In this document: positions 1 through 20,368 of the stretch, piece after piece
How the letters are laid out: each line of letters begins with the position of its first letter
How positions within the stretch are numbered: position 1 is the stretch's first letter
DNA from: Minisyncoccota bacterium
GTDB lineage: Bacteria; Patescibacteriota; Minisyncoccia; Phycocordibacterales; JACRKE01
Assembly (NCBI GenBank): GCA_041660505.1
Contig: JBAZWG010000001.1
Span: 541,776 to 605,775 of the forward strand
Length of the DNA stretch: 64,000 nt
Direction of reading: 5' to 3'
Notes under the pieces: model-generated
Databases searched by the model: none
The model's input: the letters and a program-made list of their open reading frames with translations, nothing else
What the model was told of the DNA's origin: nothing
Made by a program: the position numbers and the translations under genes

Positions 1-533
1 CTCGGGCTCTGTTCCAACCCGGCAAAGAGTGCGAACGAGACTATGGCATTCTCGGCCGAAAGGATGCCAATCATCTGCGACAAAGCTCCTCTACGATTGA
101 CGATAAGCAAGAACGAACAGAATATTGCCGAGACTGCGATAATAAGCAAGGTGGTATCGACAGACGTGAACAAAGTAAGCGGCTGGCGCAAGAACGATTC
201 GGTGAAGGCAACAAGCGCGGCAATACAAAAGAGAGTGAGGGGAGTATTGAGGTATGTTGTCGCAGAGAATACCAATTGATGGCGTTTAATTAGATTAAAG
301 AAGAATGTCGGCGCAATGAAAAGTTTAATAACAATTGTTGATATCAAGGCAAGTGCCAAAAGAAGAGACAGCTCCGTGATAGATGACATTATAAGGAGGA
401 ACACCACTACTGCCGACTGCAAGACATAGAGCCAGACTACGGTCGAGTTCTTCTTCACCAAATGCATGAGGACTATAGAGACAAAGACTATCGCAATGGC
501 GGTAAACACAAATTGGGGAGAGAGTAGATCCAT
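1..533 (-). CDS. Partial (3' end off-window) small polytopic membrane subunit of a hydrogenase-4/Ehr-like complex, HyfE/NuoK-like
   Basis: Minus-strand ORF with ATG at 533..531 that runs off the window start. Translation MDLLSPQFVFTAIAIVFVSIVLMHLVKK... is all hydrophobic helices. It sits immediately downstream of the HycD-like gene. It is absent from the ORF track because the window edge truncates it. Confidence 0.45.
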   Translation of the reverse strand, partial: MDLLSPQFVFTAIAIVFVSIVLMHLVKKNSTVVWLYVLQSAVVVFLLIMSSITELSLLLALALISTIVIKLFIAPTFFFNLIKRHQLVFSATTYLNTPLTLFCIAALVAFTESFLRQPLTLFTSVDTTLLIIAVSAIFCSFLLIVNRRGALSQMIGILSAENAIVSFALFAGLEQSP

Positions 534-535
534 GT

Positions 536-1483
536 TTAGATTATAAGCGCAATCGCGATGATGTTGATAATGAATGAGGTGAACAAGAGGTCAGGCAGGC
601 GGAAGATACGGTACTTCGCCATTGTCGATTCGATAAAGGCGATACCGAAGCAGAAGGCGAGAACCTTAAGGATAAAGATTACTAGGGCCGGTATTACAGA
701 AAAGAGCGAGAGCGATGCGCTGATGCCCATCGGGAAGAAGAGGTTGGCACCAAGCGCGATGAAGATCAGATATTTGCCCCAGGCCGCCCACTCGATCAAG
801 GCCAGGCGCTTGCCGGAGTATTCCAGTATCATCGCCTCGTGGATCATAGTGAGTTCCAGGTGAGTCGCAGGATTGTCGAAGGGGAAGCGCTTGGTCTCGG
901 CCAAGAGCGAAATAATAAAGCTCATGAAGGCGAGAAGGAGCGGGGTCGAATGTAAGAACGGCAGTGCCGCTATGCGCGCCGAGATGCCGAAAAGGTTGGA
1001 GGTGCCGGCGATGAGAGCGAGCGAAAGTAACGAGAGGATGAGCCCGCCCTCCGTGAGTGATGCCACCATCATCTCGCGAGAAGAGCCGAAGCCGCCGAAG
1101 CCGGCGCCCGTGTCGATACCGGCCAAGGCCAAGAAGAACGTTGCCAAGGCAAGCAGATAAATAATAAGCAAGAAGTCGCTCGTCAGTATATTGGGGAAGG
1201 CGCTTGAGACGAGCGGGATGCCGGCGCCGATAACTATCATTACCGCAAATATAATATAAGGCGCCACTAGGAATATCCACGAGGCATCGTGGCTCACAAC
1301 TTCGTCTTTATGAAAGAGTTTCCACAGATCACGATAGGGCTGGAAGATAGAAGCACCTTCACGATTCTGGAAGAGGGCCTTAAATTTGCGAGTCATGCCG
1401 ATGACGAACGGTGCCATGACCGGTATGAGCAGGAGTTGCAGTATCCAAAAAATCAAGATATTTATATTGAAAGATAAAGTCAT
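536..1483 (-). CDS. HycD/NuoH-like membrane subunit of a group-4 hydrogenase-like (Ehr/Hyf-type) complex
   Basis: 315 aa polytopic membrane protein. Resembles respiratory complex I subunit 1 / formate hydrogenlyase subunit 4 in hydrophobic helix pattern and conserved charged residues. Lies in an operon with NuoL-like and NuoB-like genes. Confidence 0.7.
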   Translation of the reverse strand: MTLSFNINILIFWILQLLLIPVMAPFVIGMTRKFKALFQNREGASIFQPYRDLWKLFHKDEVVSHDASWIFLVAPYIIFAVMIVIGAGIPLVSSAFPNILTSDFLLIIYLLALATFFLALAGIDTGAGFGGFGSSREMMVASLTEGGLILSLLSLALIAGTSNLFGISARIAALPFLHSTPLLLAFMSFIISLLAETKRFPFDNPATHLELTMIHEAMILEYSGKRLALIEWAAWGKYLIFIALGANLFFPMGISASLSLFSVIPALVIFILKVLAFCFGIAFIESTMAKYRIFRLPDLLFTSFIINIIAIALII

Positions 1484-1489
1484 GATATT

Positions 1490-3538
1490 TTAATGCGCAA
1501 GAATTACGAGCAGTGCTATTAGTGTTATCAGCATGTAAACAATATAGAGGTTGGTGTTGCCGGACTGAATGCGCTTGAACTGGTTGGAAAGTCTCGTGAT
1601 AAAAGATTGAACTGGCGCGTAGAAGTTGTCGAGATAAATATCTTTGAGCTCGAGATGAACGACGCTTTTCTTCGGGAAGTAGCGGAGCTCCGCATCGTGA
1701 TACTCGATGTGTGTCTGGCGTGTCGGGCGGAGCAGACCTTTAAAGATAACGATGAGCGAGCGTGAGAATCCGGTCGCGGTTATCTCCATGCGAGGCAAGA
1801 GTTCCGTCCCGCAGTCCCAAGTGCGATCGCGTCTTAACTTTCGATTTTTTGTTACTAACCCGACAATGATTCCGATGAGTGCGAGCGCAATTACCAGCCC
1901 GACGAAGAGAAGCCCTAGCGACATATTGGCAAAGTTATTGGAAAGATGAACGGCGCTCACGCTAGGCAGAACATTTAGTGTTTCTGCCGACATACCCATG
2001 TTCTGGAGCGCTTGTGCCAAGACAGTAAGGATACCGGTTACCTTGCCGGCAAATACACCGAAGATGAGCGTAAGGGTGGCGAGGAAATACATTCCGACAA
2101 GAAGCGGAGCGGAAGATTCATGAGCATGCTTGGCCTCATCACTGCGAGGGCGAGCGAGGAAGGTGATGCCGAAGGCTTTGACGAAGCAAGCGGCGGCGAG
2201 ACCGGAGGTGAAGGCCAAAGCGCCGATAGCGAGCACGAATATCATTCCCATTGTCGAGCCGAGCGAAGACACTGCGCTGAACATCGCTTGGAAGGTGAGC
2301 CATTCGGAGGCGAAGCCGTTAAGAGGAGGCAAGGCGCTAATGGCCATTGCGCCAATGAGGAAGAGGAAGGCCGTCTGGGGCATATATCGGATGAGCCCGC
2401 CGTACTTCTCGATATTGCGCGTATGTGTTGCGTGGATGACTGAGCCGGCGCCGAGGAAGAGCAGGCCCTTGAACACCGCATGGTTCATAGTGTGGAAGAG
2501 GGCGGCGATGAGGCCGATAAGAGCCAGCGCCTTCATTCCGAAAGAGAGGAATACAAGCGAACTGCCGAGGCCGAGCATGATGATGCCGATGTTCTCGATA
2601 GAGTGATAGGCGAGCAAGCGCTTAAGATCATGTTCGGACAATGCATACAAAACGCCAAGCAAGGCCGAGATCGCACCGAGTATAAGAATCGTGACACCCC
2701 ACCAGACTTGCGCCGGGCCGAGCAAGTCGAAGAAGATGCGGATGAACATATAGATACCGGTCTTAATCATGACGCCGGACATGAGGGCCGAGACGTGCGA
2801 GGGTGCGGCCGGGTGCGCTGAAGGGAGCCAGATATGGAAGGGGATGATACCGGCTTTGGTGCCGAAGCCGATGAGGGCGAGGACGAATATCATATTCTGG
2901 ATCCAGAGCGGTGCCGTCATGAGCGAGAGTTTGATAGTTCCGAAATCCAACGAACCGGTTACCTTGAACATAAGGAGAAAGGCGAGCGTGATGAACGCGG
3001 TGCCCACGTGCGTCATGACGAAGTAGAGCGTACCGGCCTTGATGTTAGCCTGCTCATGGCGCTCGTAAATTACGAGGAAGTATGAGGCGACCGACATTAC
3101 TTCCCAAGCGATAAGGAAGAAAAGAATGTTAGATGATGTAACAACTAAGAGCATTCCGAGTATAAAGCTATTGTAGAAAAAACCGAGCGTCCCCAGATTA
3201 TATTTGCCGATATATTGCTTGGCATACCCATAGCCGTAGACAGATGCGGCGAGCGCAATGAGCGAAATGACGAAGACGAAAAACACCGATAAATGGTCGA
3301 GCGTAAAGGAGAATGTAAGTGCGGGAAAGGTTGAATATCCGGCGAACGAGAAGCCAATGCCTTGCATAAGTAATGAGAGCGAGAAGACAAGAGTCGATAG
3401 TGAGCCGACGATAGAAAATATCGATGACCAAGCATGTGCCGCCTCGTCGTCGTAGCGGAAGATAAGAGAGCCGATAGCGCCGATAGTAAAAAGGCCGAGA
3501 ATAGTGGGGAAGAGTTGTTGGAGGTAAACGGCGGACAT
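1490..3538 (-). CDS. HyfB/HycC/NuoL-like antiporter-type membrane subunit (Mrp/complex I family)
   Basis: 682 aa, about 16 TM helices. Central region ...WLPSAHPAAPSHVSALMSGVMIKTGIY... is typical of the NuoL/MnhA/HyfB proton-pumping family. Start is 3 bp from the stop of the NuoB-like gene. Confidence 0.8.
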   Translation of the reverse strand: MSAVYLQQLFPTILGLFTIGAIGSLIFRYDDEAAHAWSSIFSIVGSLSTLVFSLSLLMQGIGFSFAGYSTFPALTFSFTLDHLSVFFVFVISLIALAASVYGYGYAKQYIGKYNLGTLGFFYNSFILGMLLVVTSSNILFFLIAWEVMSVASYFLVIYERHEQANIKAGTLYFVMTHVGTAFITLAFLLMFKVTGSLDFGTIKLSLMTAPLWIQNMIFVLALIGFGTKAGIIPFHIWLPSAHPAAPSHVSALMSGVMIKTGIYMFIRIFFDLLGPAQVWWGVTILILGAISALLGVLYALSEHDLKRLLAYHSIENIGIIMLGLGSSLVFLSFGMKALALIGLIAALFHTMNHAVFKGLLFLGAGSVIHATHTRNIEKYGGLIRYMPQTAFLFLIGAMAISALPPLNGFASEWLTFQAMFSAVSSLGSTMGMIFVLAIGALAFTSGLAAACFVKAFGITFLARPRSDEAKHAHESSAPLLVGMYFLATLTLIFGVFAGKVTGILTVLAQALQNMGMSAETLNVLPSVSAVHLSNNFANMSLGLLFVGLVIALALIGIIVGLVTKNRKLRRDRTWDCGTELLPRMEITATGFSRSLIVIFKGLLRPTRQTHIEYHDAELRYFPKKSVVHLELKDIYLDNFYAPVQSFITRLSNQFKRIQSGNTNLYIVYMLITLIALLVILAH

Positions 3539-3540
3539 AA

Positions 3541-4101
3541 TTATTTTGACTTAGAAGGTTCAACTTTAGGCACCTTAAAGGTTGAACCTTCTAAGTCGCC
3601 CAAAATTTGAAGCAGTGCCGTCATGATAGTCATGGGTGATGGCGGGTCGCCCGGGATTTCATAATCTACCGGTATGGCACCGCGCGCACCGTCGAGTACG
3701 GCGTAGGAGCCTTTGAATATTCCGCCATTAATAGCGTCATCGCCGACCGCGACAACAATCTTCGGAGTCGGTGTTGCTTCATAAGAATGCATAAGCCCGT
3801 CATACATATTGCGAGAGACCGGGCCTGTCACCATCAGCATATCGGCATGGCGCGGGGAGGCGACGAAGTGAATGCCGAAACGTTCAACGTCATAATAAGG
3901 ATTGCCCAGAGCCACGAGCTCCTGCTCCTCTGCGTTGGTCCCGCCGGCGGTCACGACGCGGATGGCCAAGGAGCCATTAAAGATTTTTTTGACCTTAGCG
4001 CTTAGTTCCGCGCCGGCAGTGTGATATTCAGGAGGTAAGCCCATATCAACCGATTCTATCAGTCTGGGGGTTTTTATGATTTTGGAAATTAAATTAAGCA
4101 T
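3541..4101 (-). CDS. NuoB-like hydrogenase small-subunit homologue lacking all Fe-S ligating cysteines (Ehr-type)
   Basis: 186 aa with NuoB/Oxidored_q6-like spacing (..RHADMLMVTGPVS.., ..AVGDDAINGG.., ..IPGDPPSP..). The protein contains zero Cys. The canonical CCxxE, GxCxxxGG and GCPP positions read GG, D and D. The last ~18 codons overlap a palindromic repeat (copy A1). Confidence 0.7.
   Translation of the reverse strand: MLNLISKIIKTPRLIESVDMGLPPEYHTAGAELSAKVKKIFNGSLAIRVVTAGGTNAEEQELVALGNPYYDVERFGIHFVASPRHADMLMVTGPVSRNMYDGLMHSYEATPTPKIVVAVGDDAINGGIFKGSYAVLDGARGAIPVDYEIPGDPPSPMTIMTALLQILGDLEGSTFKVPKVEPSKSK
3548..3597. repeat. REPIN-like palindromic doublet, family A copy A1 (inside 3' coding end of NuoB-like gene)
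   Basis: gacttagaaggttcaac / 16-nt loop / gttgaaccttctaagtc forms a perfect 17-bp inverted repeat built on the AAGGTTCAACCTT / AAGGTTGAACCTT motif. Confidence 0.75.
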
Positions 4102-4290
4102 GACTACAACAAAGCGTTATCCTACCCCAAACCTATATTTTTTTCAATAGTCTGGTATAATCGTAAACGTGAAATATGCATGGTTAATTCTGGTTATAAT
4201 TGTGGCGCTATTCGCTTTCGGCTTCTGGGTCGCGAGTAAAAGCGGCAGCCGCTTGGCGCCAGACCCGATAAATAACATTGCTGTTATCGG

Positions 4291-4319
4291 TTGACATTCT
4301 GGCCACATCGCGGTACTAT
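4291..4319 (+). promoter_or_regulatory. Sigma-70-like promoter candidate upstream of secE (TTGACA-17nt-TACTAT)
   Basis: TTGACA at 4291..4296, then a 17-nt spacer, then TACTAT at 4314..4319. Confidence 0.4.
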
Positions 4320-4333
4320 ACGGGTACTAAATG

Positions 4334-4352
4334 CCCCGCGGGGCTTTTTTAA
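4334..4352 (+). terminator. GC hairpin CCCCGCGGGG followed by T-run, between the promoter candidate and secE (terminator or leader attenuator)
   Basis: Perfect 10-nt palindrome ccccgcgggg at 4334..4343 followed by cttttttaaaa. It lies about 25 nt upstream of the secE ATG. Confidence 0.35.
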
Positions 4353-4378
4353 AATAAACTATAATTTAGACTATATTT

Positions 4379-5689: not shown

Positions 5690-6292
5690 ATGTTTCTTTC
5701 AGATCGAGATATTAAAGCCGCAGTGAAGTCTGGCGCTATTCGTATCGATGATTTCGATCCAGAGCGGCTCCAGCCGGTCTCCTACGATATTCTCCTTGGC
5801 AACAAGTTCATCACCACCGAGTCGCAGGACACACCTTTTATCGACCCGGTAAAAAAGATTTTCCCCAGTACGCGCGAGATTACGATTGAGGACAACGAGA
5901 GTTATGTGCTCCATCCTGGCGTGAGTATCCTCGGTACTTCATTCGATTACTTCGGCTCGAAGGAATATCTCATTCAGCTCTCGGGCAAGAGTTCGCTCGC
6001 GCGCATTGGGCTCATTGTCCACAACACCGCGGGCATCATCAACCCGGGCCATTTCTTGCATATTACGCTCGAGTTATGCAATTTGAATGTCGTGCCAATC
6101 GTTCTCCGCCCCAAGATGCATATCGCGCAGTTACTATTCTCGAAAATTTCCAATCCTGTCATTCATGACTACAGCAAGACCGGCCGATACTTCGAGAAGA
6201 ATTGGCAAGGCATCACCCACGCCAAGAACCGGCGCGTGACCGATAAAAAAGTTAATAAAAAGAAGCATGTCAAATTTTCAGATGAAGGTTAA
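5690..6292 (+). CDS. dcd: dCTP deaminase
   Basis: 200 aa. MFLSDRDIK... N-terminus and the SSLARIGLIVHNTAGIINPGH region match the Dcd/dUTPase-like trimeric fold. Overlaps dut by 26 bp. Confidence 0.75.
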   Translation: MFLSDRDIKAAVKSGAIRIDDFDPERLQPVSYDILLGNKFITTESQDTPFIDPVKKIFPSTREITIEDNESYVLHPGVSILGTSFDYFGSKEYLIQLSGKSSLARIGLIVHNTAGIINPGHFLHITLELCNLNVVPIVLRPKMHIAQLLFSKISNPVIHDYSKTGRYFEKNWQGITHAKNRRVTDKKVNKKKHVKFSDEG

Positions 6293-6698
6293 GAGGCTCA
6301 ATCCTAAGGCGATACTGCCGGATTATAAGCACGATGGGGATGCCGGTCTCAATCTATATTCGATCGTTCGGGCCAAACTCGAGCCCGGTGCGCGCGCAAC
6401 AGTCCCGACAGGTATCGCAACAGAAATACCGGCAGGACATGTGGGCCTGATTTGGGACAGAAGCGGTCTGTCGCACAAATCGGGGCTTAAGGTTATGGGC
6501 GGGGTGATTGATGCGGGATACCGCGGTGAAATCGGCGTAGGGCTGGTAAACACTTCTCATGAAGCTTATACAATCGAAGCGGGAGACAAGATAGCTCAGA
6601 TGCTTATTCAAGAAGTCGAGCACGTTCTTATTTCAGAAGTCGCAGAACTTTCCGACACGTCTCGCGGTTCAGCCGGCTTCGGCAGTACGGGGCGCTGA
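6267..6698 (+). CDS. dut: dUTP diphosphatase (dUTPase)
   Basis: 143 aa. dUTPase motifs GLIWDRSGL, GVIDAGYRGE, and the C-terminal SRGSAGFGSTG. Confidence 0.9.
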   Translation: MSNFQMKVKRLNPKAILPDYKHDGDAGLNLYSIVRAKLEPGARATVPTGIATEIPAGHVGLIWDRSGLSHKSGLKVMGGVIDAGYRGEIGVGLVNTSHEAYTIEAGDKIAQMLIQEVEHVLISEVAELSDTSRGSAGFGSTGR

Positions 6699-6722
6699 AG
6701 AAATAGTCCAGTGCAATTCAAT

Positions 6723-6760
6723 TATTCCAAAACTCTGCTATCGCGTGATTCTGGAATAGA
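6723..6760. repeat. 36-nt repeat copy a flanking the PaaX-like regulator gene
   Basis: ttattccaaaactctgctatcgcgtgattctggaata. A second copy lies at 7342..7380. Confidence 0.6.
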
Positions 6761-6778
6761 AAAGATAATTCAAGTTTT

Positions 6779-7339
6779 TTATTTCAAACCGAATTTTTCT
6801 TTGAGCTTATTGTCTGGTTGAATGCGGGATTCGAGCAGATAGACATATTCAGAAATTTCGTGGTAGTTCAGAACGAAGTTCACCTCTTCTTCGCAGGGGT
6901 AGGGGAATACAAAAACGCTTTTCTGGAATTCTTTGAAACCGAGTTTTTTGAGTTTGGTACGCAAGGCATCTCGTGCCGGTTTGAGCGGCTCGGGAATGTC
7001 GAAGAGAACCATGCGCCATTTTTTGTCCCACTTCTTTTCTTGATTCAAGGTTAGCGCGTTGTACATTCGTTTCAGGCGATAACTGGCACCATCGCGCGTC
7101 ATCGCCATTTTATATGAATCCTTACCCTTCACAACTTCGACGTAGCCGCGTAGTTTCAGTTTGTCTAATGTCGCAAACAGCACCTTGCGGTTCATTTCGA
7201 ACCAAACTTTGTCACAATGCTCATGAATTGCGCGTCGCCGAGTTTTCCCGCGTGTGAAAATAAGAACAGTCTGCGAGGCCAGAAGATCAAGAATCTGCGT
7301 CGCGAGGATTTCTCGTTTTGTCATATCGTAATAATACAC
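6779..7339 (-). CDS. PaaX-family-like transcriptional regulator (N-terminal wHTH, C-terminal PaaX_C/Cas2-like domain)
   Basis: 186 aa. C-terminal block WDKKWRMVLFDIPEPLKPARDALRTKLKKLGFKEFQKSVFVFPYP matches the PaaX C-terminal signature. Sits inside the thyA-tmk cluster. Confidence 0.5.
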   Translation of the reverse strand: MYYYDMTKREILATQILDLLASQTVLIFTRGKTRRRAIHEHCDKVWFEMNRKVLFATLDKLKLRGYVEVVKGKDSYKMAMTRDGASYRLKRMYNALTLNQEKKWDKKWRMVLFDIPEPLKPARDALRTKLKKLGFKEFQKSVFVFPYPCEEEVNFVLNYHEISEYVYLLESRIQPDNKLKEKFGLK

Positions 7340-7341
7340 TA

Positions 7342-7380
7342 TTCCAAAACTCCGCGATAGCGTGATTTTGGGATAATCGC
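7342..7380. repeat. 36-nt repeat copy b flanking the PaaX-like regulator gene
   Basis: ctattccaaaactccgcgatagcgtgattttgggata. Flanks are direct relative to copy a. The central 9-mer (cgcgatagc) is the reverse complement of the 9-mer in copy a (gctatcgcg). Confidence 0.6.
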
Positions 7381-7393
7381 GAAAAAGAAATTC

Positions 7394-8323
7394 TTATACT
7401 GCAATCGGGGCTTTGATCGGTGGGTGGGGGTCGTAGCCTATGACTTCGACATCTTCGAATTTGAAATCGAAGATGTCTTTGACGGCGGGATTAATTTTCA
7501 TCGTCGGGAGCTTGCGCGGTTCGCGGGAGAGTTGTTCTTCTACTTGGGCAAAATGATTTTTATAAATATGGACATCGCCAAAGGTGTGGATGAACTCGCC
7601 CGGCTGCAGTCCGGCCACTTGCGCCATCATCATGGTAAAGAGGGAATAGGACGCGACATTAAAGGGTACACCCAGAAAGACGTCGGCCGAGCGCTGGTAG
7701 AGCTGGCAAGAGAGTTTGCCGTTAATGACCATAAAATGAAAGAGCGTGTGACAAGGTGGTGGGGCAGAGTGGTGCGCCTTGACTAAGCTCTCGATCTCGC
7801 CGATGTTCCAGCCGGAGACAATGAGTCGGCGCGAAGTCGGGTCGTTCTTTATCAAATCCAAAACAAGTTTGACTTGATTGATGCTCCTGCCGTCCTTCGT
7901 CTCCCAGTTGACCCACTGCTTACCGTAGATTGGGCCAAGCTCGCCGTATTTCTTGGCAAACTCGTCATCATTCACTATTTTCTCAACGAACTCCGCCATA
8001 TGATTGGTCCAACTCTCTGAATAGCGCGGATATTTTTCTTCCAGATTATTTTTCTTCAAATAGTCGGCATAGGCCCATTCGTTCCAAATCTTCACGCCAT
8101 TCTTTGCGAGATACTGAATATTAGTGTCTCCCCGCAAGAACCAGAGAAGTTCGTAAATTATCGATTTTAAATAAACTTTCTTGGTCGTGAGCAGAGGGAA
8201 GCCGTCGGCCAAATTCACTCTATATTGATAACCGAAGAGGCTGCGTGTGCCGACGCCGGTGCGATCCGCCTTATCGGTACCATCATCGCGAATCTTCTTG
8301 AGCAAGTCTAAATATTGCCGCAT
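7394..8323 (-). CDS. thyA: Thymidylate synthase ThyA
   Basis: 309 aa. Active-site region [41 protein letters not shown]. Confidence 0.9.
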
Positions 8324-8331
8324 AAGATTTA

Positions 8332-8931
8332 TTATTTTGATAAGTTAATAACTTCTTTATGTATCTCTTCGACGCTTCGCTCGCCATCTATGAGATATAC
8401 ATTTGGGTACCACTCCGGCATCTTGGCGTATATCTCGCCGGCTTTGCGTAATTTCTCGGTTTTCTCGAAGAGTTCCAGCTCGCGCCCATTTTTTGTAATA
8501 CGTTGCAAACAGACTTCTGGTCGTGCGATAAAGATAAAAGTCAGATCAGGGATGGGGAATGGCTCGTTGATTTGTTTAAGCCATTCAACATCCAGATTAA
8601 GCGAACCGAAGGCGACGGTCGAAAATAAATAACGGTCAGAAACTACCGTTTTGCCGGCATCAAGCGCCGGAATAATAACTTGCTCTACGTGCCACTTGCG
8701 ATCTTTAACAAAGAGTTCTTGTAATTCTTTCGGCGTTAGAGATTTCTTGTGTTTCAACACATCGTCAATCTCATCAGAAAAAGGACTTTCGCCACGCGAT
8801 GTTGGCTCCTCTGTCTGCAGGACGTCGTGTCTGTGTTCGGTAAGATATTTAATAAAAAGTTCGATTTGGGCGCTCTTGCCGGAGCCGTCGAGACCCTCGA
8901 AGACGATAAATTTCCCTTTTCTTGCACTCAT
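8332..8931 (-). CDS. tmk: Thymidylate kinase
   Basis: 199 aa. P-loop [16 protein letters not shown] region present. Confidence 0.9.
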
Positions 8932-8954
8932 AATTTTGATTGTAACAGAAAGAT

Positions 8955-9479
8955 GTGATATCGTCTAAGCATATGATAGTCTCGCTCATCGTTGCAATGG
9001 ACAAGAACCGTGTTATCGGGCAGTCGGGGACTTTGCCCTGGAATATCCAGGCCGATATGAACTTCTTCAAGACTATCACGATGCATCACCCGGTCATCAT
9101 GGGGAGGAAGACCCACGAGTCCATCGGCCGAGCCTTGCCTCATCGCTTGAATATTATCGTAACGCGCCAAGCGGGCTATCAGCCTAAAGGGAAAGCGGGG
9201 GATTCTGTGATTGTGCCGAATTTGGAAGCCGCCTTCGATTGGGCGCTCAAGGTAGAGAAGCAGGAGATATTCGTCATCGGCGGGGCAGAAATTTTCGAAC
9301 AAGCAATGCCAGTCGCCGACAAAATTTATATCACAGAAATAGATTCAGAATTCAAAGGTGACACATTTTTTCCTGAGATTAGCTCGAAAGAATGGGAGCT
9401 AAAATCGTCATCAGCTCTAAATAACGAATCCACCGGCGGGCATACGCTCCACTTCAAGACTTACGAACGAAGAAAGTAA
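8955..9479 (+). CDS. folA: Dihydrofolate reductase
   Basis: 174 aa. Motifs IVAMDKNRVIGQSGTLPW and VIMGRKTHESIG, plus the GG motif VIGGAEIF. Confidence 0.85.
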   Translation: MISSKHMIVSLIVAMDKNRVIGQSGTLPWNIQADMNFFKTITMHHPVIMGRKTHESIGRALPHRLNIIVTRQAGYQPKGKAGDSVIVPNLEAAFDWALKVEKQEIFVIGGAEIFEQAMPVADKIYITEIDSEFKGDTFFPEISSKEWELKSSSALNNESTGGHTLHFKTYERRK

Positions 9480-9894: not shown

Positions 9895-10242
9895 TTAGAC
9901 TAGAGCCCTGTCGAGGCACTTGATGGCCTCGACAAGCGCGTTCGTGACAGAGAAATTGCCCTTCTTCGAATATTGGACCATCACGACACCGACGGCCTCG
10001 GCGATCTCGTCGAGATTCTTCAAGGGCATCTTGATGCCCTTGGCCGTCTCGAACGGGATGTTCTCGCCGACGAATCGGATCTTGATGATCTCGATCCGGA
10101 TCTCGGCGATCCTGCCATAGGTCAGTATGTTGCGACTCCTGTCGCCGGGGATGATGGCCCCATCGGCCACCGCCTCGGTGACCCATGCCGTCAGCTCCTT
10201 GAGTTTCCTCGTGTCCACTCCTCCTCCTTCAGGCAGAGACAA
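9895..10242 (-). CDS. Hypothetical protein, paralogue 1 of a tandem pair in a high-GC island
   Basis: 115 aa. Block ..IRFVGENIPFETAKGIKMPLKNLDEIAEAVGVVMVQY..ALVEAIKCLDRAL is homologous to the 9546..9884 product. Confidence 0.5.
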   Translation of the reverse strand: MSLPEGGGVDTRKLKELTAWVTEAVADGAIIPGDRSRNILTYGRIAEIRIEIIKIRFVGENIPFETAKGIKMPLKNLDEIAEAVGVVMVQYSKKGNFSVTNALVEAIKCLDRALV

Positions 10243-10336
10243 TCCGCCCGCATCTGCTTAATCAAGATCAGCCTATAGGATTATAAGCTCCATGTCCATG
10301 GCCAACAGAACCCTTTTCGTGCTATAAATATGTTCT

Positions 10337-13300
10337 ATGGAATCAACTAAATCTGACGTCGCCAAGCGCGAGGAAGAGATACTGCAGTTTTGGCAAGAGG
10401 ATAAAACCTTTGAAAAGTCTTTAAAGAAGAAGTCGCCTAAGGGTAACTACGTTTTTTACGATGGCCCGCCTTTTGCCACCGGCACACCGCACTATGGGCA
10501 TATTTTAGGAAGCACAGCTAAAGATGTTATCGGGCGGTATAAGACTATGCAAGGCTACCATGTGCCGAGGCGTTGGGGCTGGGATTGCCATGGTCTGCCT
10601 ATTGAGAATATCGTCGAGAAAGATTTGAAGATTTCCGGCCGTAAGGCTATTGAAGAATACGGTATTGAGAAATTTACGGAGTATGCTCGCAGTAAAGTAT
10701 TGACCTACGTGCACGAATGGAAGAAGACAATCGATCGTATCGGACGCTGGGTGGACTTCGACAATTCCTACAAGACGATGGATAACAGCTTTATCGAGTC
10801 TGTCTGGTGGGCCTTGGGCGAACTGAATAAAAAAGGTTTGATCTATGAAGGTGTTCGCGTCTTGGCGTACTGCCCGCGCTGTGAGACGCCGATTGCCAAC
10901 TCCGAGATCGCAATGGACAATAGTTATAAAGACATCACTGATATCTCTGTCTACGCAAAGTTTGAACTAAAGGATGAGCCAAAAACATATTTCTTAGCGT
11001 GGACAACAACACCGTGGACGTTGCCGGGCAACATCGCACTCGCGGTCAATCCGGAGGTGGCTTATGTAAAAATTAAGCACGAGGGACAGTATTTGATACT
11101 CGCGAAGGAACGTCTGGTGAATACGATGAAAGATAAGCCCTATGAATTAATCGAAGAGTTTGAGGGCAAAACTTTTATAGGGAAAAAATATACGCCACTG
11201 TTCGATTATTATACACACACAAAAGGCATTGCCGATAATGAGAAGTCGTGGACGGTGCGCGGGGCGGAATTTGTGACCACGACCGATGGCACAGGAATAG
11301 TACATATCGCGCCAGCCTTCGGCGAGGACGATATGAATATGGCGAAGGCAGAAGGTTTGCCCTGGATCATCCATGTGACGCCGACCGGTAAATTTACCGA
11401 CGAGGTCACTCATTTTGCGGGCCAGCAAGTAAAACCCAAAGAGAATCATCAAGCCGCCGATGTCGAGATAATTAAGTATCTTGCGCATAATCATCTGCTG
11501 TTTGAAAAAGAAAAAATCATTCACTCTTACCCGCATTGCTATCGCTGTGAGACGCCTCTTTACTATTACGCGTTGCCGTCGTGGTTCGTTAATATCCAGA
11601 AAGAAAAATCTCACATTCTGAGTCGTGCTGAAGAGATGGCCTGGATACCTGCGCACCTGAAAGAGGGGAGGTTCAAGGGTGGCGTCGAGAGTGCGCCAGA
11701 TTGGACGATATCACGCAACCGTTACTGGGCATCGCCTTTGCCGATCTGGAAATCGAAGTCGGGAAAGGTTATGTTCGTAAACTCTCTCGAAGATTTAAAA
11801 AATAAGACAAAAAAGTCCGGGAATACGTACCACGTGATGCGCCACGGCGAGGCGGAAAATAATGTAAAAAAAATAGTCAGTTACGCTGACCAGAAAAATT
11901 CGCACCTCACGCCTAAGGGTAAAGAAGAGACTATGAGTACAGCAAAGACTGTTGCCGTAAATAAAATTACAAAAATCTTTTGTTCACCATTCACACGTAC
12001 GCTCGAGACTGCTTACATCGTGGCAGACGAGCTAGGAATTTCGCGAGACAACATCGTCACCGATGTTCGTCTCTGGGAACTAAACGCAGGGACATTCGAC
12101 GGTAAAAAATGGGCAGAGTGGGAAGTGTGGGCAAAATCACAGGAAAATTATTATAACGCAAGACCCGAAGGTGGCGAGAGCCATTTCGACGCTAAGAAAC
12201 GTTTCGGAGATTTTATCTACGATATCGATAGCCAGTTTCATAATGAAAGTATTCTTGTTGTAACGCACGGCATTGGGCTCGAGGTACTACCGGCAGTCGT
12301 CGAATGCGCCGACGGTGTGCGGTCTAAGCAGATTTACGAAAACACAAGTGAAAAAACAGGGGCAATGATTGAATTAGAATTCACTCCGCTTCCGCACACT
12401 GCCAACTATGAGCTTGATTTTCACCGGCCTTATATTGATGCGATAAAATTGGTTGATGAAGCAGGGGAAGAGTACACAAGAATTACAGAAGTCATTGACT
12501 GTTGGTTCGAGTCCGGCTCGATGCCATTCGCGCAAGACCATTATCCATTCGAACGCAAGAATTGGCAGAAAGAGAATTTTCCCGCAGGGTTCGTGGCAGA
12601 ATATATCGCCCAGACACGCACATGGTTCTATTATACGCACGCGCTTTCTACTATCTTCTTCGACCACGCACCATTCCAGAATGTCATCACGACCGGTAAT
12701 ATTTTGGCCGAGGATGGCCAGAAGATGAGTAAGTCGAAAGGGAACTTTCCTGATCCGGCTCTGCTCTTCGACAAATACAGTGTCGACGCATTGCGCCTCT
12801 ACTTGATGTCCAGCACGCTCATGAAGGGCGAGGATATGAACTTCTTCGAAAAAGGCGTAGATGAAGTAAATAAAAAGGTGATAATGCGCCTCGGTAATGT
12901 GTTGTCTTTTTATAAACTGTATTCTGACTTTAGCTCTAACTCCCAACTCCTAACTCCCAACTCCTCCCATGTGTTAGATCAATGGATGTTTTCTAGACTT
13001 GGTCAGCTTGTGACAGAAGTTACCACGTATATGGAATTATACGAGCTTGATAAGGCGACGCGACCACTCTTCGACTTCGTTGATGATTTATCGACATGGT
13101 ATCTGCGCCGTTCGCGCGACAGGTTTAAATCCGATGATGTTGAAGATAGGGAGGCCGCATTGCAAACTACTCGCTACGTATTAGAAACTACGGCAAAACT
13201 TGTCGCGCCACTTATGCCGTTCATCGCAGAATATATATATAAAGAGTTAGGGAACAGTGAGAGTGTGCACCTCGCCGATTGGCCAGGAATGGGAGATGGG

Positions 13301-13768
13301 AGTTTGGAGATAGGAGATAGGGTAATTCAAGATATGGTTCTGGTGCGGAAAGTAGCTTCACTTGGTCTCGAAGCGCGAGCAAAAGAAAAGATTGCGGTCC
13401 GTCAGCCATTAGCGAAGCTCGAGTTGAAAGATGCGACACTTGAGGGGAAGACGGAATTACTCGAACTGATTAAAGATGAAGTCAATGTAAAACAGATCTT
13501 GTTCAATAAAGAGCTGGAATCGGAAGTGAAGCTCGACACCGTGCTTACCGATGAGCTCAAACAGGAAGGCGAACTCCGCGAGCTGATGCGCGCTGTCCAA
13601 GATTTGCGAAAAACTAAAGGGCTTGAGCCGGGGCAAGTAATACGCCTGACTTTGTCAAAATCATATGAAACTCTCGCAAAAAAGTTCGAGACCGAACTCA
13701 AGAAAGGCGTTCGGGCAGAAAAGATAGTTGTGGCTGAAACGGCAGAAATGTCGCTCGAAGTAGTCTAG
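10337..13768 (+). CDS. ileS: Isoleucyl-tRNA synthetase with an inserted histidine-phosphatase (PGAM-like) domain
   Basis: 1143 aa. HIGH motif PHYGHIL, KMSKS motif QKMSKSKGN, editing-domain motifs and CYRCETPL all present. An inserted ~195 aa region (nt ~11819..12407) carries RHGEAENN, LTPKG, SPFTRTLETA, ELNAGTFDG and VVTHG, the hallmarks of histidine phosphatases. Confidence 0.9.
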   Translation: MESTKSDVAKREEEILQFWQEDKTFEKSLKKKSPKGNYVFYDGPPFATGTPHYGHILGSTAKDVIGRYKTMQGYHVPRRWGWDCHGLPIENIVEKDLKISGRKAIEEYGIEKFTEYARSKVLTYVHEWKKTIDRIGRWVDFDNSYKTMDNSFIESVWWALGELNKKGLIYEGVRVLAYCPRCETPIANSEIAMDNSYKDITDISVYAKFELKDEPKTYFLAWTTTPWTLPGNIALAVNPEVAYVKIKHEGQYLILAKERLVNTMKDKPYELIEEFEGKTFIGKKYTPLFDYYTHTKGIADNEKSWTVRGAEFVTTTDGTGIVHIAPAFGEDDMNMAKAEGLPWIIHVTPTGKFTDEVTHFAGQQVKPKENHQAADVEIIKYLAHNHLLFEKEKIIHSYPHCYRCETPLYYYALPSWFVNIQKEKSHILSRAEEMAWIPAHLKEGRFKGGVESAPDWTISRNRYWASPLPIWKSKSGKVMFVNSLEDLKNKTKKSGNTYHVMRHGEAENNVKKIVSYADQKNSHLTPKGKEETMSTAKTVAVNKITKIFCSPFTRTLETAYIVADELGISRDNIVTDVRLWELNAGTFDGKKWAEWEVWAKSQENYYNARPEGGESHFDAKKRFGDFIYDIDSQFHNESILVVTHGIGLEVLPAVVECADGVRSKQIYENTSEKTGAMIELEFTPLPHTANYELDFHRPYIDAIKLVDEAGEEYTRITEVIDCWFESGSMPFAQDHYPFERKNWQKENFPAGFVAEYIAQTRTWFYYTHALSTIFFDHAPFQNVITTGNILAEDGQKMSKSKGNFPDPALLFDKYSVDALRLYLMSSTLMKGEDMNFFEKGVDEVNKKVIMRLGNVLSFYKLYSDFSSNSQLLTPNSSHVLDQWMFSRLGQLVTEVTTYMELYELDKATRPLFDFVDDLSTWYLRRSRDRFKSDDVEDREAALQTTRYVLETTAKLVAPLMPFIAEYIYKELGNSESVHLADWPGMGDGSLEIGDRVIQDMVLVRKVASLGLEARAKEKIAVRQPLAKLELKDATLEGKTELLELIKDEVNVKQILFNKELESEVKLDTVLTDELKQEGELRELMRAVQDLRKTKGLEPGQVIRLTLSKSYETLAKKFETELKKGVRAEKIVVAETAEMSLEVV

Positions 13769-13771
13769 CCT

Positions 13772-14350
13772 ATGTACCGCGTCTACACGACGAAGGCAAT
13801 TGTGCTTGGCAGCAAGAACGCGGGGGAGGCGAATAAATATTACTTTCTGCTCACCCGCGAGCTCGGGCTCATCACTGCATTTGCGCAGGGAGTGCGAGAA
13901 TTAAAGTCGAAATTGCGGCATGGGCTCGAGCAGTATTCTTACGTACAAGTCTCGCTTATTCGCGGTAAAGAAAAGTGGCGGCTTACCAATGTTGCGCACA
14001 TGGTCGGCATAGAAGGTATAAAAAATTCTAAAGAAAAGGCTAAACTTGAGGCGAAGTTGTGCGCTCTGGTGCAACGCTTGGTGCACGGTGAGGAGGCAGA
14101 CATTGAATTGTTCGACGAGCTTGTTGACTCACTCAAATTTTTAGCGCGATGCGATTCCGATTTGCACGATTATGAACTGCTCGCGGTGCTTCGTGTGCTC
14201 GACCGGCTTGGCTATATCGCACCGCGCGAGGCTTGGCTCGCGTATCTCGATAATGAATTGTGGAAAGGTGAGGCGCTACCCGATATCGCCAAAGAGCGTA
14301 AGTCCTTGCTTCAGACTATCAATGAGTCTTTGTACCATAGTCAACTTTAG
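13772..14350 (+). CDS. recO: DNA repair protein RecO (short form)
   Basis: 192 aa. N-terminal OB-fold region pattern (AIVLGSKNAGEANKYYFLLTRELGLITAFAQGVRELKSKL) and C-terminal helical region fit RecO. Confidence 0.65.
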   Translation: MYRVYTTKAIVLGSKNAGEANKYYFLLTRELGLITAFAQGVRELKSKLRHGLEQYSYVQVSLIRGKEKWRLTNVAHMVGIEGIKNSKEKAKLEAKLCALVQRLVHGEEADIELFDELVDSLKFLARCDSDLHDYELLAVLRVLDRLGYIAPREAWLAYLDNELWKGEALPDIAKERKSLLQTINESLYHSQL

Positions 14351-14374
14351 TCCGGCGCGGTATAATGTATCTAT

Positions 14375-16288: not shown

Positions 16289-16314
16289 TCTAACAGAATT
16301 AAAGAATTTAGGAA

Positions 16315-19717: not shown

Positions 19718-19758
19718 TCTACGTTGTTGGTTGACGCCTTTCGTGATATGCTACGCAC

Positions 19759-20052
19759 ATGAGCGATATCGCATTATTACAGCAGAATAAAGATATTTTC
19801 GAGAAATACGGCACGGCCTATGCCGGGCTTTTTGGGTCGCGTGCGCGAGGGAATGCTCATGAAGACAGTGATTACGATATTGTCGTCAAACTAAAAAAAC
19901 CGATCGGGCTTTTTACATTTACCGGCTTTCAGCTCGAATTGGAAGATCGTCTACAAAAGAAAGTTGATCTCATGACTGAGGCTTCGATAACTCCTAGGAT
20001 TAAGTTACAAGCATTAAATGACCTCAAGATTTTCTATGGACAGCGAGAATAA
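19759..20052 (+). CDS. mntA: MntA-type nucleotidyltransferase antitoxin
   Basis: 97 aa. Minimal nucleotidyltransferase signature GLFGSRARGNAHEDSDYDIVV. Confidence 0.8.
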   Translation: MSDIALLQQNKDIFEKYGTAYAGLFGSRARGNAHEDSDYDIVVKLKKPIGLFTFTGFQLELEDRLQKKVDLMTEASITPRIKLQALNDLKIFYGQRE

Positions 20053-20368
20053 GTTGTATCTCGGGCACATTCTTGATGCGATTACCAAGCTCGAGAAATA
20101 TGCGGGATTGACTTCGCGGACTGATTTGGAGACAAACGATCTTGTGTATGACGCCATAGTTCGCGAAATAGAAATTTTAGGTGAGGCAACGAAACACCTG
20201 ACGGACGACTTCCGTTGTCTGGAACAGGGAATTCCCTGGAATCTGATTATTGCAACCAGAAACAAGCTTATACACGAGTATTCCGAAGTTGATCTTGATT
20301 CTATCTGGAAAACTATCCAAGAAGATTTACCTAAGCTCAAAGCGGTGGTCAATAAGTATTTGAATTGA
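20018..20368 (+). CDS. hepT: HepT-type HEPN toxin (DUF86)
   Basis: 116 aa. HEPN Rx4-6H motif RNKLIHEY. Overlaps mntA as usual for this toxin-antitoxin pair. The alternative in-frame ATG at 20036 may be the true start. Confidence 0.8.
   Translation: MTSRFSMDSENKLYLGHILDAITKLEKYAGLTSRTDLETNDLVYDAIVREIEILGEATKHLTDDFRCLEQGIPWNLIIATRNKLIHEYSEVDLDSIWKTIQEDLPKLKAVVNKYLN

What the first reader, a model, noticed from the sequence alone, without database searches (positions are those of the whole stretch)
1..4101. Partial operon for a group-4 hydrogenase-like (Ehr-type) membrane complex whose NuoB homologue has no cysteines
Four co-oriented genes are homologous to energy-converting hydrogenase / formate-hydrogenlyase / complex I membrane-arm subunits. 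In order they are NuoB-like, HyfB/NuoL-like, HycD/NuoH-like, and an edge-truncated HyfE-like. The NuoB-like protein (186 aa) contains zero Cys. Every position that ligates the proximal [4Fe-4S] cluster in NuoB and hydrogenase small subunits is substituted (CC to GG, C to D, C to D). It therefore cannot carry the cluster that relays electrons from a NiFe site. This matches the described but poorly understood Ehr (energy-converting hydrogenase-related) complexes, which are thought to be redox-independent ion translocators. The operon is noticeably GC-richer than neighbouring housekeeping genes, so it may be laterally acquired. The large-subunit (NuoD-like) gene would lie beyond the window start.
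Basis: partly seen in the sequence, partly recalled or inferred. Interest (0 to 1): 0.7.

Follow-up and report, generated by a model that had tools for sequence, protein, structure and literature searches.

The report
Cofactor-less hydrogenase-like membrane complex (Ehr)
The window holds the first four genes of a six-gene operon, from a tiny-genome (CPR) bacterium, for a relative of respiratory complex I and membrane hydrogenases that has lost every metal-binding cysteine; it is a known but functionally unsolved kind of complex (Ehr), and in related genomes it often sits beside or inside the ATP synthase operon.

Summary
On the minus strand, window 4101..1 encodes a NuoB/HycG-like small subunit (186 aa, no Cys), then HyfB/NuoL-like, HycD/NuoH-like and an edge-cut HyfE-like protein, with 2-6 nt between genes. 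All four [4Fe-4S] ligand positions are replaced. The correct mapping is T55, E58, D122, D152, not "CC to GG".

In 55 related loci the operon has the same six genes: small subunit, HyfB, HycD, HyfE, HyfF, then a NuoC-NuoD fusion. The genome's own large subunit (NCBI MFA6006647.1, same 719-kb Paceibacterota contig) reads ERISGDTSFSH and NLSYTGNDL, so all four NiFe cysteines are gone. No ferredoxin-like subunit is encoded.

A CPR-specific Ehr clade was already described (Jaffe 2020), so this is a new member of a known kind.

Two points go beyond what I found in print. The former cluster site always keeps at least two carboxylates. ATP synthase genes lie within 10 kb in 22 of 80 related loci, and in two loci the operon sits between atpG and atpD.

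My best mechanism is a redox-independent ion translocator working with the F1Fo ATPase. This is inferred, not shown. The GC argument for lateral transfer is weak.

The parts
3541..4101 (-). First gene of the operon: NuoB/HycG/MbhJ-like small subunit (EhrS-like), 186 aa, no Cys. The former [4Fe-4S] ligand positions are T55, E58, D122, D152. D121, D152, E59 and E61 are conserved in at least 95% of 78 family members.
   Evidence: Oxidored_q6 4e-22; HycG 3e-26, MbhJ 5e-24, residue alignments. Identical protein P0001 and NCBI MFA6006652.1.
1490..3538 (-). HyfB/HycC/NuoL-like antiporter-like subunit, 682 aa. The charged residues of the ion path are retained: E146 (TM5), K228 (TM7), K259 (TM8), H349/H353/K357, E412.
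   Evidence: Proton_antipo_M 4e-61; HyfB equivalog NF005086, 699 bits against cut-off 667; HycC 7z0s_C 1e-79; MbhH 4e-64; MrpA 3e-47.
536..1483 (-). HycD/HyfC/NuoH-like membrane subunit, 315 aa. This is the anchor of the peripheral module. Many conserved acidic residues: E137, E145, E196, D203, E210, E216, E221, E231.
   Evidence: (NADHdh 2e-46).
1..533 (-). HyfE-like small membrane subunit. Only the N-terminal 177 aa of about 218 are present, cut by the window start. The invariant E161 lies in the NuoK-like C-terminal half.
   Evidence: HyfE NF008556, 3e-6; full-length L082 orthologue 1.6e-10 over the whole model; Oxidored_q2, weak, in L008.
4119..4147 (-). Sigma-70-like promoter candidate (TTGAAA-17-TAGGAT), 18 nt before the start codon of the small-subunit gene. 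It lies in the 277-nt divergent intergenic region shared with secE.
   Evidence: This is a consensus match only: 10 sites found against 5.5 expected in the region, so the evidence is weak.

Best explanation
Identity (high confidence). This is the 5' two-thirds of a six-gene operon for an Ehr-type complex in a Paceibacterota (CPR/Patescibacteria) genome. The gene order is small subunit, HyfB-like, HycD-like, HyfE-like, HyfF-like, then a NuoC-NuoD fusion. The complex is built like a Hyf-type group-4 hydrogenase or a stripped complex I. It has two antiporter-like subunits, a NuoH-like and a NuoK-like membrane subunit, and a NuoB plus NuoCD cap.

Every redox cofactor site is gone. There is no NiFe site, no proximal [4Fe-4S] cluster and no ferredoxin-like subunit.

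Mechanism (inferred, moderate confidence). With no route for electrons, the complex can only be driven by ion gradients. I propose a secondary ion translocator, most simply H+/cation exchange as in Mrp. It would use or shape the gradient set up by the F1Fo ATPase in an organism without a respiratory chain. The cap would be retained as a gating, coupling or sensing element. A conserved carboxylate/polar network would replace the metal centres.

Shown: homology, loss of ligands, operon content, retention of ion-path residues, purifying selection, genomic linkage to atp genes in relatives.

Inferred: ion translocation, its direction and ion, and the role of the cap.
For: 1. Loss of cofactor sites.
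- Small subunit: T55/E58/D122/D152 at columns that read CCCC in 97 of 150 nearest representatives.
- Large subunit of the same genome (P0392 = MFA6006647.1): ERISGDTSFSH and NLSYTGNDL.
- In 62 relatives the four NiFe Cys read S (61), S/T (62), S (61), G (60).

2. No electron-input subunit. 55 complete loci carry exactly the same six genes, and none has a HycF/NuoI/HyfA homologue inside the operon.

3. The machine is under strong constraint and is not decaying.
- 59 of 186 small-subunit columns are at least 95% identical.
- 91 large-subunit columns are at least 97% identical across several phyla.
- dN against L082 is 0.15-0.17 with synonymous sites saturated.

4. Ion-path residues are retained in the HyfB-like subunit (E146, K228, K259, K357), in the HyfF-like subunit and in the NuoH-like subunit.

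5. ATP synthase subunits are the only recurrent neighbours. They form the five largest neighbour families, in 10-17 loci each; the next family occurs in 6 loci.
- 22 of 80 loci have atp genes within the flanks, in several different arrangements.
- In L081 and L069 the six genes sit between atpG and atpD, with gaps of 5-25 nt. L081 was verified by Pfam.
- In L031 the operon starts 3 nt after atpC.
- In the closest syntenic relative, L082, atpC lies 1.8 kb beyond the large-subunit gene.

6. Host context. The RecA protein is identical to one from 'Candidatus Paceibacterota bacterium' on a 719-kb contig. The 23S rRNA carries two group I introns. CPR bacteria generally lack electron-transport chains (title and thesis of PMC7507113).
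Against: - No experiment exists for any Ehr complex. The papers read call its role unknown (10.1101/765248; PMC4378227).
- Mrp antiporters need MrpE/F/G-type subunits, which are absent here, and they have no peripheral cap. The extreme conservation of the cap (91 near-invariant columns) therefore fits a catalytic or ligand-binding pocket at least as well as a passive lid.
- The window itself contains no atp gene. The linkage is seen in 22 of 80 relatives, mostly CPR-labelled, not in all. Related species are not independent samples.
- The c-subunits encoded next to Ehr lack the Q...E-S/T sodium signature (my reading). A dedicated Na+ cycle through the ATPase therefore gets no support.
- Published views favour a redox partner (PMC6349859).
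Confidence: 0.6

Rival explanations
1. A gradient-driven or gradient-generating enzyme with non-redox chemistry. The highly conserved pocket that replaced the NiFe site, together with the carboxylate site that replaced the cluster, would bind a substrate or a hard metal ion. Its chemistry or binding would be coupled to ion movement, as quinone chemistry is in complex I.
For: - The replacement motifs are themselves near-invariant: E-[RK]-[IV]-S-G-D-[ST]-S-F-x-H and L-I-N-K-S-F-N-L-S-Y-S-G-N-D.
- The hydrogenase-type E-P-G-H loop is retained.
- The former cluster site always keeps at least two carboxylates, in a compensating pattern. Variants include TCDD, DCDD, SEGD and DADD, and E appears at position 2 when D is lost at position 3.
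Against: - No candidate substrate emerges, and apart from atp genes no conserved neighbouring enzyme gene was found.
- Position 2 tolerates C, E, A, V and P, and position 1 tolerates T, D, S and N. A defined four-ligand metal site is therefore unlikely.
- The conserved residues could equally be a structural salt-bridge network filling the space left by the cluster.
Confidence: 0.2
2. Still a redox-coupled pump. Electrons would arrive from a separately encoded partner, such as a formate dehydrogenase or ferredoxin, as proposed for Ehr complexes of Margulisbacteria and Saganbacteria. Alternatively a non-canonical cofactor would be bound by the Asp/Cys/Glu residues.
For: - Published hypothesis for other Ehr complexes (PMC6349859).
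- Most family members keep one Cys at ligand position 2: 107 of 121 close homologues and 55 of 78 species-level sequences.
- Asp and Glu can ligate Fe-S clusters in some proteins (general knowledge).
Against: - The window protein has no Cys at all, and position 2 is E, A, V or P in 23 of 78 species-level sequences.
- There is no NuoI/HycF-type relay and no Fe-S protein in the operon. The Ehr complexes with a proposed FDH partner have a NuoB-NuoI fusion, which is absent here (supplement of PMC6349859).
- There is no Q-site Tyr. The position of Nqo4 Tyr87 is an invariant Gly.
- The hosts are CPR bacteria without quinones or respiratory chains (PMC7507113).
Confidence: 0.1
3. A non-functional relic of a hydrogenase operon, decaying in a reduced genome.
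For: All catalytic ligands are lost.
Against: - Reading frames are intact and genes are 2-6 nt apart.
- The same six genes occur in at least 55 species-level genomes, with 55-66% identity of the small subunit across phyla and many invariant columns.
- dN is 0.15-0.17 while synonymous sites are saturated.
- A 7.3-kb operon is kept in genomes of roughly 0.7-1 Mb.
- Ehr subunits are detected as proteins in Geobacter (PMC7894505, PMC8691401).
Confidence: 0.03

Closest known systems
Ehr (energy-converting / Ech-hydrogenase-related) complexes, in particular the CPR-specific clade of Jaffe et al. 2020 (PMC7304191)
   Same: - The gene set is homologous to group-4 hydrogenase and complex I subunits.
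- The large subunit lacks the NiFe cysteines.
- Found in Patescibacteria with a patchy distribution.
- Function unknown.
   Different: - The papers I could read describe only the large subunit's loss of cysteines.
- Here the small subunit has also lost the [4Fe-4S] ligands, with a conserved carboxylate pattern in their place.
- No NuoI-like module exists. Margulisbacteria Ehr has a NuoB-NuoI fusion (PMC6349859 supplement).
- The small-subunit gene comes first. From memory, it comes last in Geobacter ehrA-B-C-D-L-S.
- Linkage to atp operons was not mentioned in any paper found.
E. coli hydrogenase 4 / formate hydrogenlyase-2 (Hyf, group 4a [NiFe]-hydrogenase) and FHL-1 (Hyc; PDB 7z0s)
   Same: - Best sequence matches for every subunit: HyfB equivalog above cut-off, HyfE, HyfF, HycE 4e-68, HycG 3e-26, HycC 1e-79.
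- Gene order is colinear with hyfB-C-(D)-E-F-G.
- The large subunit is a NuoC-NuoD fusion.
   Different: No NiFe ligands, no proximal cluster ligands, and no HyfA/HyfH/HycB/HycF Fe-S subunits. HyfD is absent and there is no formate dehydrogenase partner. It cannot make or use H2.
Mrp multisubunit cation/proton antiporter (PDB 6z16, 7qru, 7d3u)
   Same: - Redox-independent.
- Two antiporter-like subunits with the same Glu/Lys/His ion-path residues (MrpA 3e-47, MrpD 6e-32 to the window's HyfB-like protein).
- A NuoK/MrpC-like small subunit.
   Different: Ehr has a NuoH-like subunit and a large cytoplasmic NuoB + NuoCD cap that Mrp lacks. It has no MrpB/E/F/G homologues. Antiport activity has not been tested.
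Respiratory complex I (Nuo) and its minimal relatives MBH and MBS (PDB 6cfw, 6u8y)
   Same: The NuoB-NuoD-NuoH junction joined to antiporter-like subunits, with a conserved charged axis in the membrane arm.
   Different: No cluster N2, no NuoI/E/F/G, and no NuoA/J/M homologues identified. The quinone-site Tyr position is Gly. No electron transfer is possible.

Membership tests
Ehr complex (Coppi 2005; Marreiros 2013, as cited in PMC6349859, PMC4378227 and PMC4758237) | A gene cluster encoding homologues of the group-4 hydrogenase large and small subunits, plus NuoH-like and antiporter-like membrane subunits. | tested here: met
   The window has the small subunit and the HyfB-, HycD- and HyfE-like genes. 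The HyfF-like and NuoCD-like genes complete the operon in the syntenic relative L082 and in 55 other loci. The genome's own large subunit exists, five accession numbers away on the same contig.
Ehr complex | The large subunit lacks the N-terminal RxCGxCxxxH and C-terminal DPCxxCxxH/R NiFe-binding cysteines. | tested here: met
   P0392 (MFA6006647.1, same 719,008-bp contig) reads ERISGDTSFSH and FNLSYTGNDL. L082 reads SGDSSFSH and NLSYSGND. 60-62 of 62 relatives lack each Cys. The gene lies outside the window, so the link to this genome rests on contig length, taxon name and accession spacing.
CPR-specific Ehr clade (Jaffe et al. 2020) | Large-subunit sequences from CPR bacteria form a monophyletic group separate from other Ehr sequences. 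| not tested
   No tree was built with their reference set. The host is a Paceibacterota and the nearest homologues are mostly Patescibacteria. However, sequences about 66% identical carry Thermoleophilia, Lentisphaerae, Syntrophales and other labels.
Group 4 [NiFe]-hydrogenase (Hyf/Hyc/Mbh/Ech) | Four Cys in the small subunit ligating the proximal [4Fe-4S] cluster. | tested here: not met
   T55, E58, D122, D152, with no Cys anywhere in the protein.
Group 4 [NiFe]-hydrogenase | Four Cys in the large subunit binding Ni-Fe. | tested here: not met
Group 4 [NiFe]-hydrogenase | A 2x[4Fe-4S] ferredoxin-like subunit (HycF/HyfH/MbhN/EchF) relaying electrons to the small subunit. | tested here: not met
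   No such gene occurs in any of the 55 complete six-gene operons or in L082. Genes are 2-6 nt apart in the window.
Respiratory complex I (NADH:quinone oxidoreductase) | Cluster N2 in NuoB (the CCxxE motif plus two further Cys). | tested here: not met
   CC aligns with A57-E58 (alignment to NDUFS7, with the upstream residues supplied from my knowledge of the NDUFS7 sequence). All NCBIfam NuoB models score below their cut-offs, the best being 100.9 against 116.
Respiratory complex I | Quinone-binding Tyr (T. thermophilus Nqo4 Tyr87) and His38 in NuoD. | tested here: inconclusive
   The His of the beta1-beta2 loop is retained (E-P-G-H). The column of Tyr87 is an invariant Gly, as in hydrogenases. 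Residue numbering of Nqo4 is from memory.
Mrp-type cation/proton antiporter | Seven-subunit set MrpA-G with no cytoplasmic redox arm. | tested here: not met
   Only MrpA/D-like and MrpC/NuoK-like homologues are present, alongside NuoH, NuoB and NuoCD homologues.
Mrp-type cation/proton antiporter | Conserved TM5 Glu, TM7 Lys, TM8 Lys/His and TM12 Lys/Glu in the antiporter-like subunits. | tested here: met
   E146, K228, K259 and K357 in the window's HyfB-like protein are at least 95% conserved in 67 sequences. E134, K221 and K339 are conserved in HyfF-like proteins. Helix assignment is by motif similarity, not by structure.
Mrp-type cation/proton antiporter | Measured Na+(K+)/H+ antiport activity. 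| not testable with these tools
   Needs transport assays.

The most novel reading that the evidence does not exclude
The cofactor-free Ehr of CPR bacteria is a dedicated partner of the F1Fo ATP synthase. It would be a complex-I-derived machine that runs with no redox chemistry at all. It would either convert the ATPase-made proton gradient into another ion gradient, or gate proton flow in response to cytoplasmic conditions through the conserved carboxylate site that replaced the Fe-S cluster. That would make it the first natural 'electron-free complex I' and a core piece of energy handling in organisms without respiratory chains.
Probability: 0.3. Interest if true: 0.75.

Novelty: new member of a known kind. 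Interest (0 to 1): 0.42.

Why it matters
Ehr complexes have been known from genomes since 2005, and no function has been assigned. This subtype is the cleanest case for asking what a complex-I-type machine does without electrons. It has six genes and no cofactor ligands, it is under strong constraint, and it sits in bacteria with minimal genomes and no respiratory chain.

The link to atp operons gives a concrete hypothesis that can be tested with transport assays, co-purification and cryo-EM.

There is also a practical point. Annotation pipelines name these genes 'formate hydrogenlyase' and 'NADH-quinone oxidoreductase subunit C', or 'Ni,Fe-hydrogenase III'. Metabolic reconstructions can then wrongly credit CPR bacteria with hydrogen metabolism or NADH-driven respiration.

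Tried and rejected
- Fetching the native contig beyond the window start failed. Exact look-ups of the HycD-like, HyfB-like, large-subunit and NCBI-start small-subunit proteins found nothing. The 186-aa protein returned only a 5.5-kb Logan contig that ends inside the HyfB-like gene. I worked around this with the syntenic relative L082 and with the large subunit from the same 719,008-bp contig.
- The two primary Ehr papers (Marreiros 2013; Coppi 2005) are not held. I therefore could not check whether loss of the small-subunit cysteines was already reported there.
- A search for 'EhrS/EhrL' was swamped by electronic-health-record papers.
- A profile of the HyfE-like family against PDB gave only a marginal hit to MbhG (E = 0.2). 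The HyfE assignment rests on NCBIfam and on synteny.
- dN/dS against L082 is undefined because synonymous sites are saturated.
- I looked for a sodium-binding signature in the c-subunits of Ehr-linked atp operons and did not see one. I therefore dropped the idea of a Na+-ATPase partner.
- GC content as evidence for recent lateral transfer was rejected.
- Structure prediction was not run. The tool returns no coordinates, and fold assignment is already unambiguous from sequence.
Full report
**What is in the window.**
The first 4.1 kb carry four tightly packed genes, all on the minus strand. They are 4101..3541 (186 aa), 3538..1490 (682 aa), 1483..536 (315 aa) and 533..1 (177 aa, running off the window edge). 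The spacers are 2, 6 and 2 nt. This indicates one transcription unit that starts at 4101. Upstream is a 277-nt divergent intergenic region shared with secE-nusG-rplK. A sigma-70-like site (TTGAAA-17-TAGGAT) lies 18 nt before the start codon, which is weak evidence.

**Homology.**
- Pfam gives Oxidored_q6 (4e-22), Proton_antipo_M (4e-61) and NADHdh (2e-46).
- NCBIfam puts the 682-aa protein above the curated cut-off of the 'hydrogenase 4 subunit B' equivalog (699 bits against 667). It gives a weak HyfE hit for the truncated fourth protein.
- The full-length HyfE orthologue in the closest relative matches the whole HyfE model at 1.6e-10.
- Among solved structures the small subunit is closest to HycG of E. 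coli formate hydrogenlyase (7z0s_G, 3e-26) and MbhJ (6cfw_J, 5e-24), and only then to complex I PSST/NuoB.
- The 682-aa protein is closest to HycC (1e-79), MbhH and MrpA.

**The cysteine-free small subunit.**
The 186-aa protein has no Cys. In HMMER and MAFFT alignments with HycG and MbhJ, the four [4Fe-4S] ligand columns read T55, E58, D122 and D152. The columns are reliable, because 97 of the 150 nearest 50%-identity representatives from a 1.8-billion-protein library read C-C-C-C there. In the NuoB frame the tandem CC falls on A57-E58.

At the family level the picture is more nuanced than 'no cysteines'.
- Among 120 close homologues, ligand position 2 is still Cys in 107. Position 3 is Asp in 118 and position 4 is Asp in 120.
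- Across 78 species-level sequences the patterns are TCDD (33), DCDD (15), SEGD (10), DADD (5) and rarer ones. The window's TEDD is rare.
- Position 2 can be C, E, A, V or P, so the residual Cys is dispensable.
- At least two carboxylates are always present, and Glu appears at position 2 when Asp is lost at position 3.
- D121, D152, E59 and E61 are at least 95% conserved.

A cubane cluster cannot be bound. The site looks re-purposed rather than degraded.

**The rest of the operon and the refutation test.**
A scan of one genome per GTDB species found 207 relatives, and 80 loci were fetched. Every locus long enough shows the same six genes in the same order: small subunit, HyfB-like (~680 aa), HycD-like (~310), HyfE-like (~218), HyfF-like (~480), and a NuoC-NuoD fusion (~522). 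This was seen in 55 intact loci, and the others are cut by contig ends or split by frameshifts.

The large subunit carries Complex1_30kDa plus Complex1_49kDa domains and is closest to HycE (4e-68). In 62 sequences the four NiFe cysteines read S (61), S/T (62), S (61) and G (60). The replacement motifs are themselves near-invariant: E-[RK]-[IV]-S-G-D-[ST]-S-F-x-H and L-I-N-K-S-F-N-L-S-Y-S-G-N-D. In total 91 columns are at least 97% identical.

The closest relative, L082, is syntenic with the window, with the same secE-nusG-rplK-dcd-dut genes upstream. Its proteins are 77-84% identical, and it has the full operon with SGDSSFSH and NLSYSGND in the large subunit.

The window's own genome was then identified.
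- Its RecA is identical to NCBI MFA6006684.1 from 'Candidatus Paceibacterota bacterium', on a 719,008-bp contig.
- The small subunit is MFA6006652.1.
- A large subunit 80% identical to that of L082 is MFA6006647.1 on a contig of the same length.
- The two accession numbers are five apart, as expected for six consecutive genes.
- That large subunit reads ERISGDTSFSH and FNLSYTGNDL.

No canonical small subunit, intact NiFe subunit or ferredoxin-like subunit belongs to the operon.

**Is the complex functional?**
Conservation is high across phyla. The small subunit is 55-66% identical to the window protein in 77 species. 131 columns of the HyfB-like protein and 78 of the NuoH-like protein are at least 95% identical.

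The residues thought to carry ions in complex I, MBH and Mrp are retained.
- HyfB-like: E146, K228, K259, H349/H353/K357, E412.
- HyfF-like: the equivalent Glu and Lys residues.
- NuoH-like: a string of conserved acidic residues.

Against L082, dN is 0.15-0.17 while synonymous sites are saturated. A 7.3-kb operon kept intact in genomes of under 1 Mb is not a relic.

**A recurrent neighbour: ATP synthase.**
I clustered all flanking ORFs of the 80 loci. The five most recurrent neighbour families are all F-type ATP synthase subunits: alpha/beta in 17 loci, a in 15, gamma in 14, epsilon in 12 and b in 10. The next family occurs in only 6 loci.

In all, 22 of 80 loci have atp genes within the flanks (10 kb upstream, about 3.3 kb downstream), in several arrangements.
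- atpB...atpC followed by the Ehr operon on the same strand. In L031 the gap is 3 nt.
- The Ehr operon followed by atpB, 0.6-1.1 kb downstream.
- Convergent arrangements.
- In L081 and L069, the six Ehr genes inserted between atpG and atpD. In L081, atpG ends at 9995, Ehr runs 10001-17208, atpD starts at 17233 and atpC at 18600.

Pfam confirms the L081 and L031 calls. By my tally of the record titles, 15 of the 40 loci labelled as CPR lineages are linked, spread over Saccharimonadia, Paceibacteria, Magasanikbacteria and Uhrbacteria. In L082, atpC lies 1.8 kb beyond the large-subunit gene, convergently.

For a 1-Mb genome, chance proximity would be about 2-3% (my rough estimate). Related species are not independent samples, but the variety of arrangements argues for selection on proximity. 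I found no mention of this linkage in the papers searched. The window itself shows no atp gene. If this genome resembles L082, the atp genes would lie beyond the window start.

**Mechanism.**
Shown: there is no ligand set for NiFe, for the proximal cluster or for a ferredoxin relay. The quinone-site Tyr column is an invariant Gly. The membrane ion-path residues and the NuoB-NuoD-NuoH junction are conserved.

Inferred: the complex cannot be driven by electron transfer, so it must act on ion gradients. The most economical model is a secondary H+/cation translocator of the Mrp kind. It would work with the F1Fo ATPase, which in a fermentative CPR cell is the likely source of the membrane potential. 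The cap would serve as a coupling, gating or sensing element, with carboxylate and polar networks replacing the metals. I put about 0.9 on the Ehr identity and about 0.4-0.5 on this mechanism.

Rivals are listed separately:
- non-redox chemistry or ligand binding in the conserved pocket (0.2);
- a hidden redox partner or non-canonical cofactor (0.1);
- a relic (0.03).

The c-subunits next to Ehr lack a sodium signature, so a Na+-coupled ATPase is not supported.

**Comparison with what is known.**
Ehr clusters were defined in Geobacter and later surveyed. This is cited in PMC6349859, PMC4378227 and PMC4758237; the primary papers are not held.

Jaffe et al. 2020 (PMC7304191) reported a monophyletic CPR clade of Ehr large subunits lacking the metal-binding cysteines. 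They concluded these proteins probably cannot interact with H2. Other Ehr complexes have a NuoB-NuoI fusion and a proposed formate dehydrogenase partner (PMC6349859 and its supplement), which this subtype lacks. Ehr subunits are detected as proteins in Geobacter (PMC7894505, PMC8691401).

The finding is therefore a new member of a known kind. The additions are the ligand-loss pattern of the small subunit and the atp linkage. I could not establish whether the former is already in Marreiros 2013.

**GC and lateral transfer.**
Region 1-4101 is 0.508 GC against 0.475 for the window. Per-gene GC z-scores run from -0.55 to +1.05 against 44 other genes. Only the GC3 of the HyfB- and HycD-like genes is the highest in the window, with z of 1.7-2.2. 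Several housekeeping genes (nusG, dcd, thyA, recA, efp) have GC3 of 0.61-0.64. With conserved synteny at about 80% protein identity, there is no sign of recent acquisition. Ancient transfer among phyla remains plausible, given roughly 66% identity to sequences labelled Thermoleophilia, Lentisphaerae, Scalindua and others.

**Verdict.**
The feature is real and ordinary in kind, since it belongs to a known family, but the family's function is an open question. Interest is moderate.

Noticed in passing
Related loci L081 (5554-19025), L069, L031, L006, L024, L045, L058, L067, L077, L079, L008, L059, L034, L076; L082 15345-15587: F-type ATP synthase genes are the only recurrent neighbours of the six-gene Ehr operon, in 22 of 80 loci. 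In L081 and L069 the operon is inserted between atpG and atpD. In L031 it starts 3 nt after atpC. I did not find this in the literature searched.
   Followed up: partly
window 46994-50976 (+): A 23S rRNA gene of 3805 nt, against a 2925-nt model. It is interrupted by two group I introns (49184-49460 and 50275-50495) and followed by 5S rRNA (50869-50976). There is no adjacent 16S and no tRNA gene anywhere in the 64 kb. This is typical of CPR/Patescibacteria.
   Followed up: partly
window 18005-22062 (+): Two paralogous Cys-rich ORFs of about 570 aa (18005-19717 and 20365-22062), with lower GC (0.41-0.43). The second has a weak treble-clef zinc-finger hit. They flank a nucleotidyltransferase/HepT-like (MNT-HEPN) toxin-antitoxin pair at 19759-20368. 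A 574-aa ORF with a weak zf_Tbcl hit lies directly after the Ehr operon in the syntenic relative L082; I did not test whether it is related to the window ORFs.
   Followed up: partly
window 5690-9479; L082 618-2264: A thymidylate cluster lies next to the operon: dCTP deaminase, dUTPase, ThyA, thymidylate kinase and DHFR. The syntenic relative L082 carries a flavin-dependent ThyX (Thy1) at the corresponding side. This suggests a ThyA+DHFR versus ThyX swap between close relatives.
   Followed up: no
window 4102-4378: The divergent intergenic region between the small-subunit gene and secE contains three things. There is a near-consensus promoter on the + strand (TTGACA-17-TACTAT, 4291-4319). It is followed by a GC hairpin with a T-run just before secE. 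There is also a possible ORF of about 45 aa for a single-pass membrane peptide on the + strand, around 4170-4300. In L082 this gap instead holds a 302-aa NTP_transferase gene.
   Followed up: no
window 3541-4101 (-): NCBI annotates this gene from Met20 (167 aa, MFA6006652.1, 'formate hydrogenlyase'). It names the large subunit 'NADH-quinone oxidoreductase subunit C', and JGI calls them 'Ni,Fe-hydrogenase III' subunits. All these names imply redox functions that the sequences cannot support. The N-terminal 19 residues are conserved in relatives, which favours the 186-aa start.
   Followed up: partly
L022 (Lentisphaerae, MHBE01000059.1): This locus carries a second, partly different cluster (HyfB-, HycD-, HyfF- and NuoCD-like) directly upstream of the six-gene operon. 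A 254-aa HycG-sized small subunit follows directly downstream. This non-CPR genome therefore appears to hold tandem Ehr/hydrogenase-type clusters.
   Followed up: no
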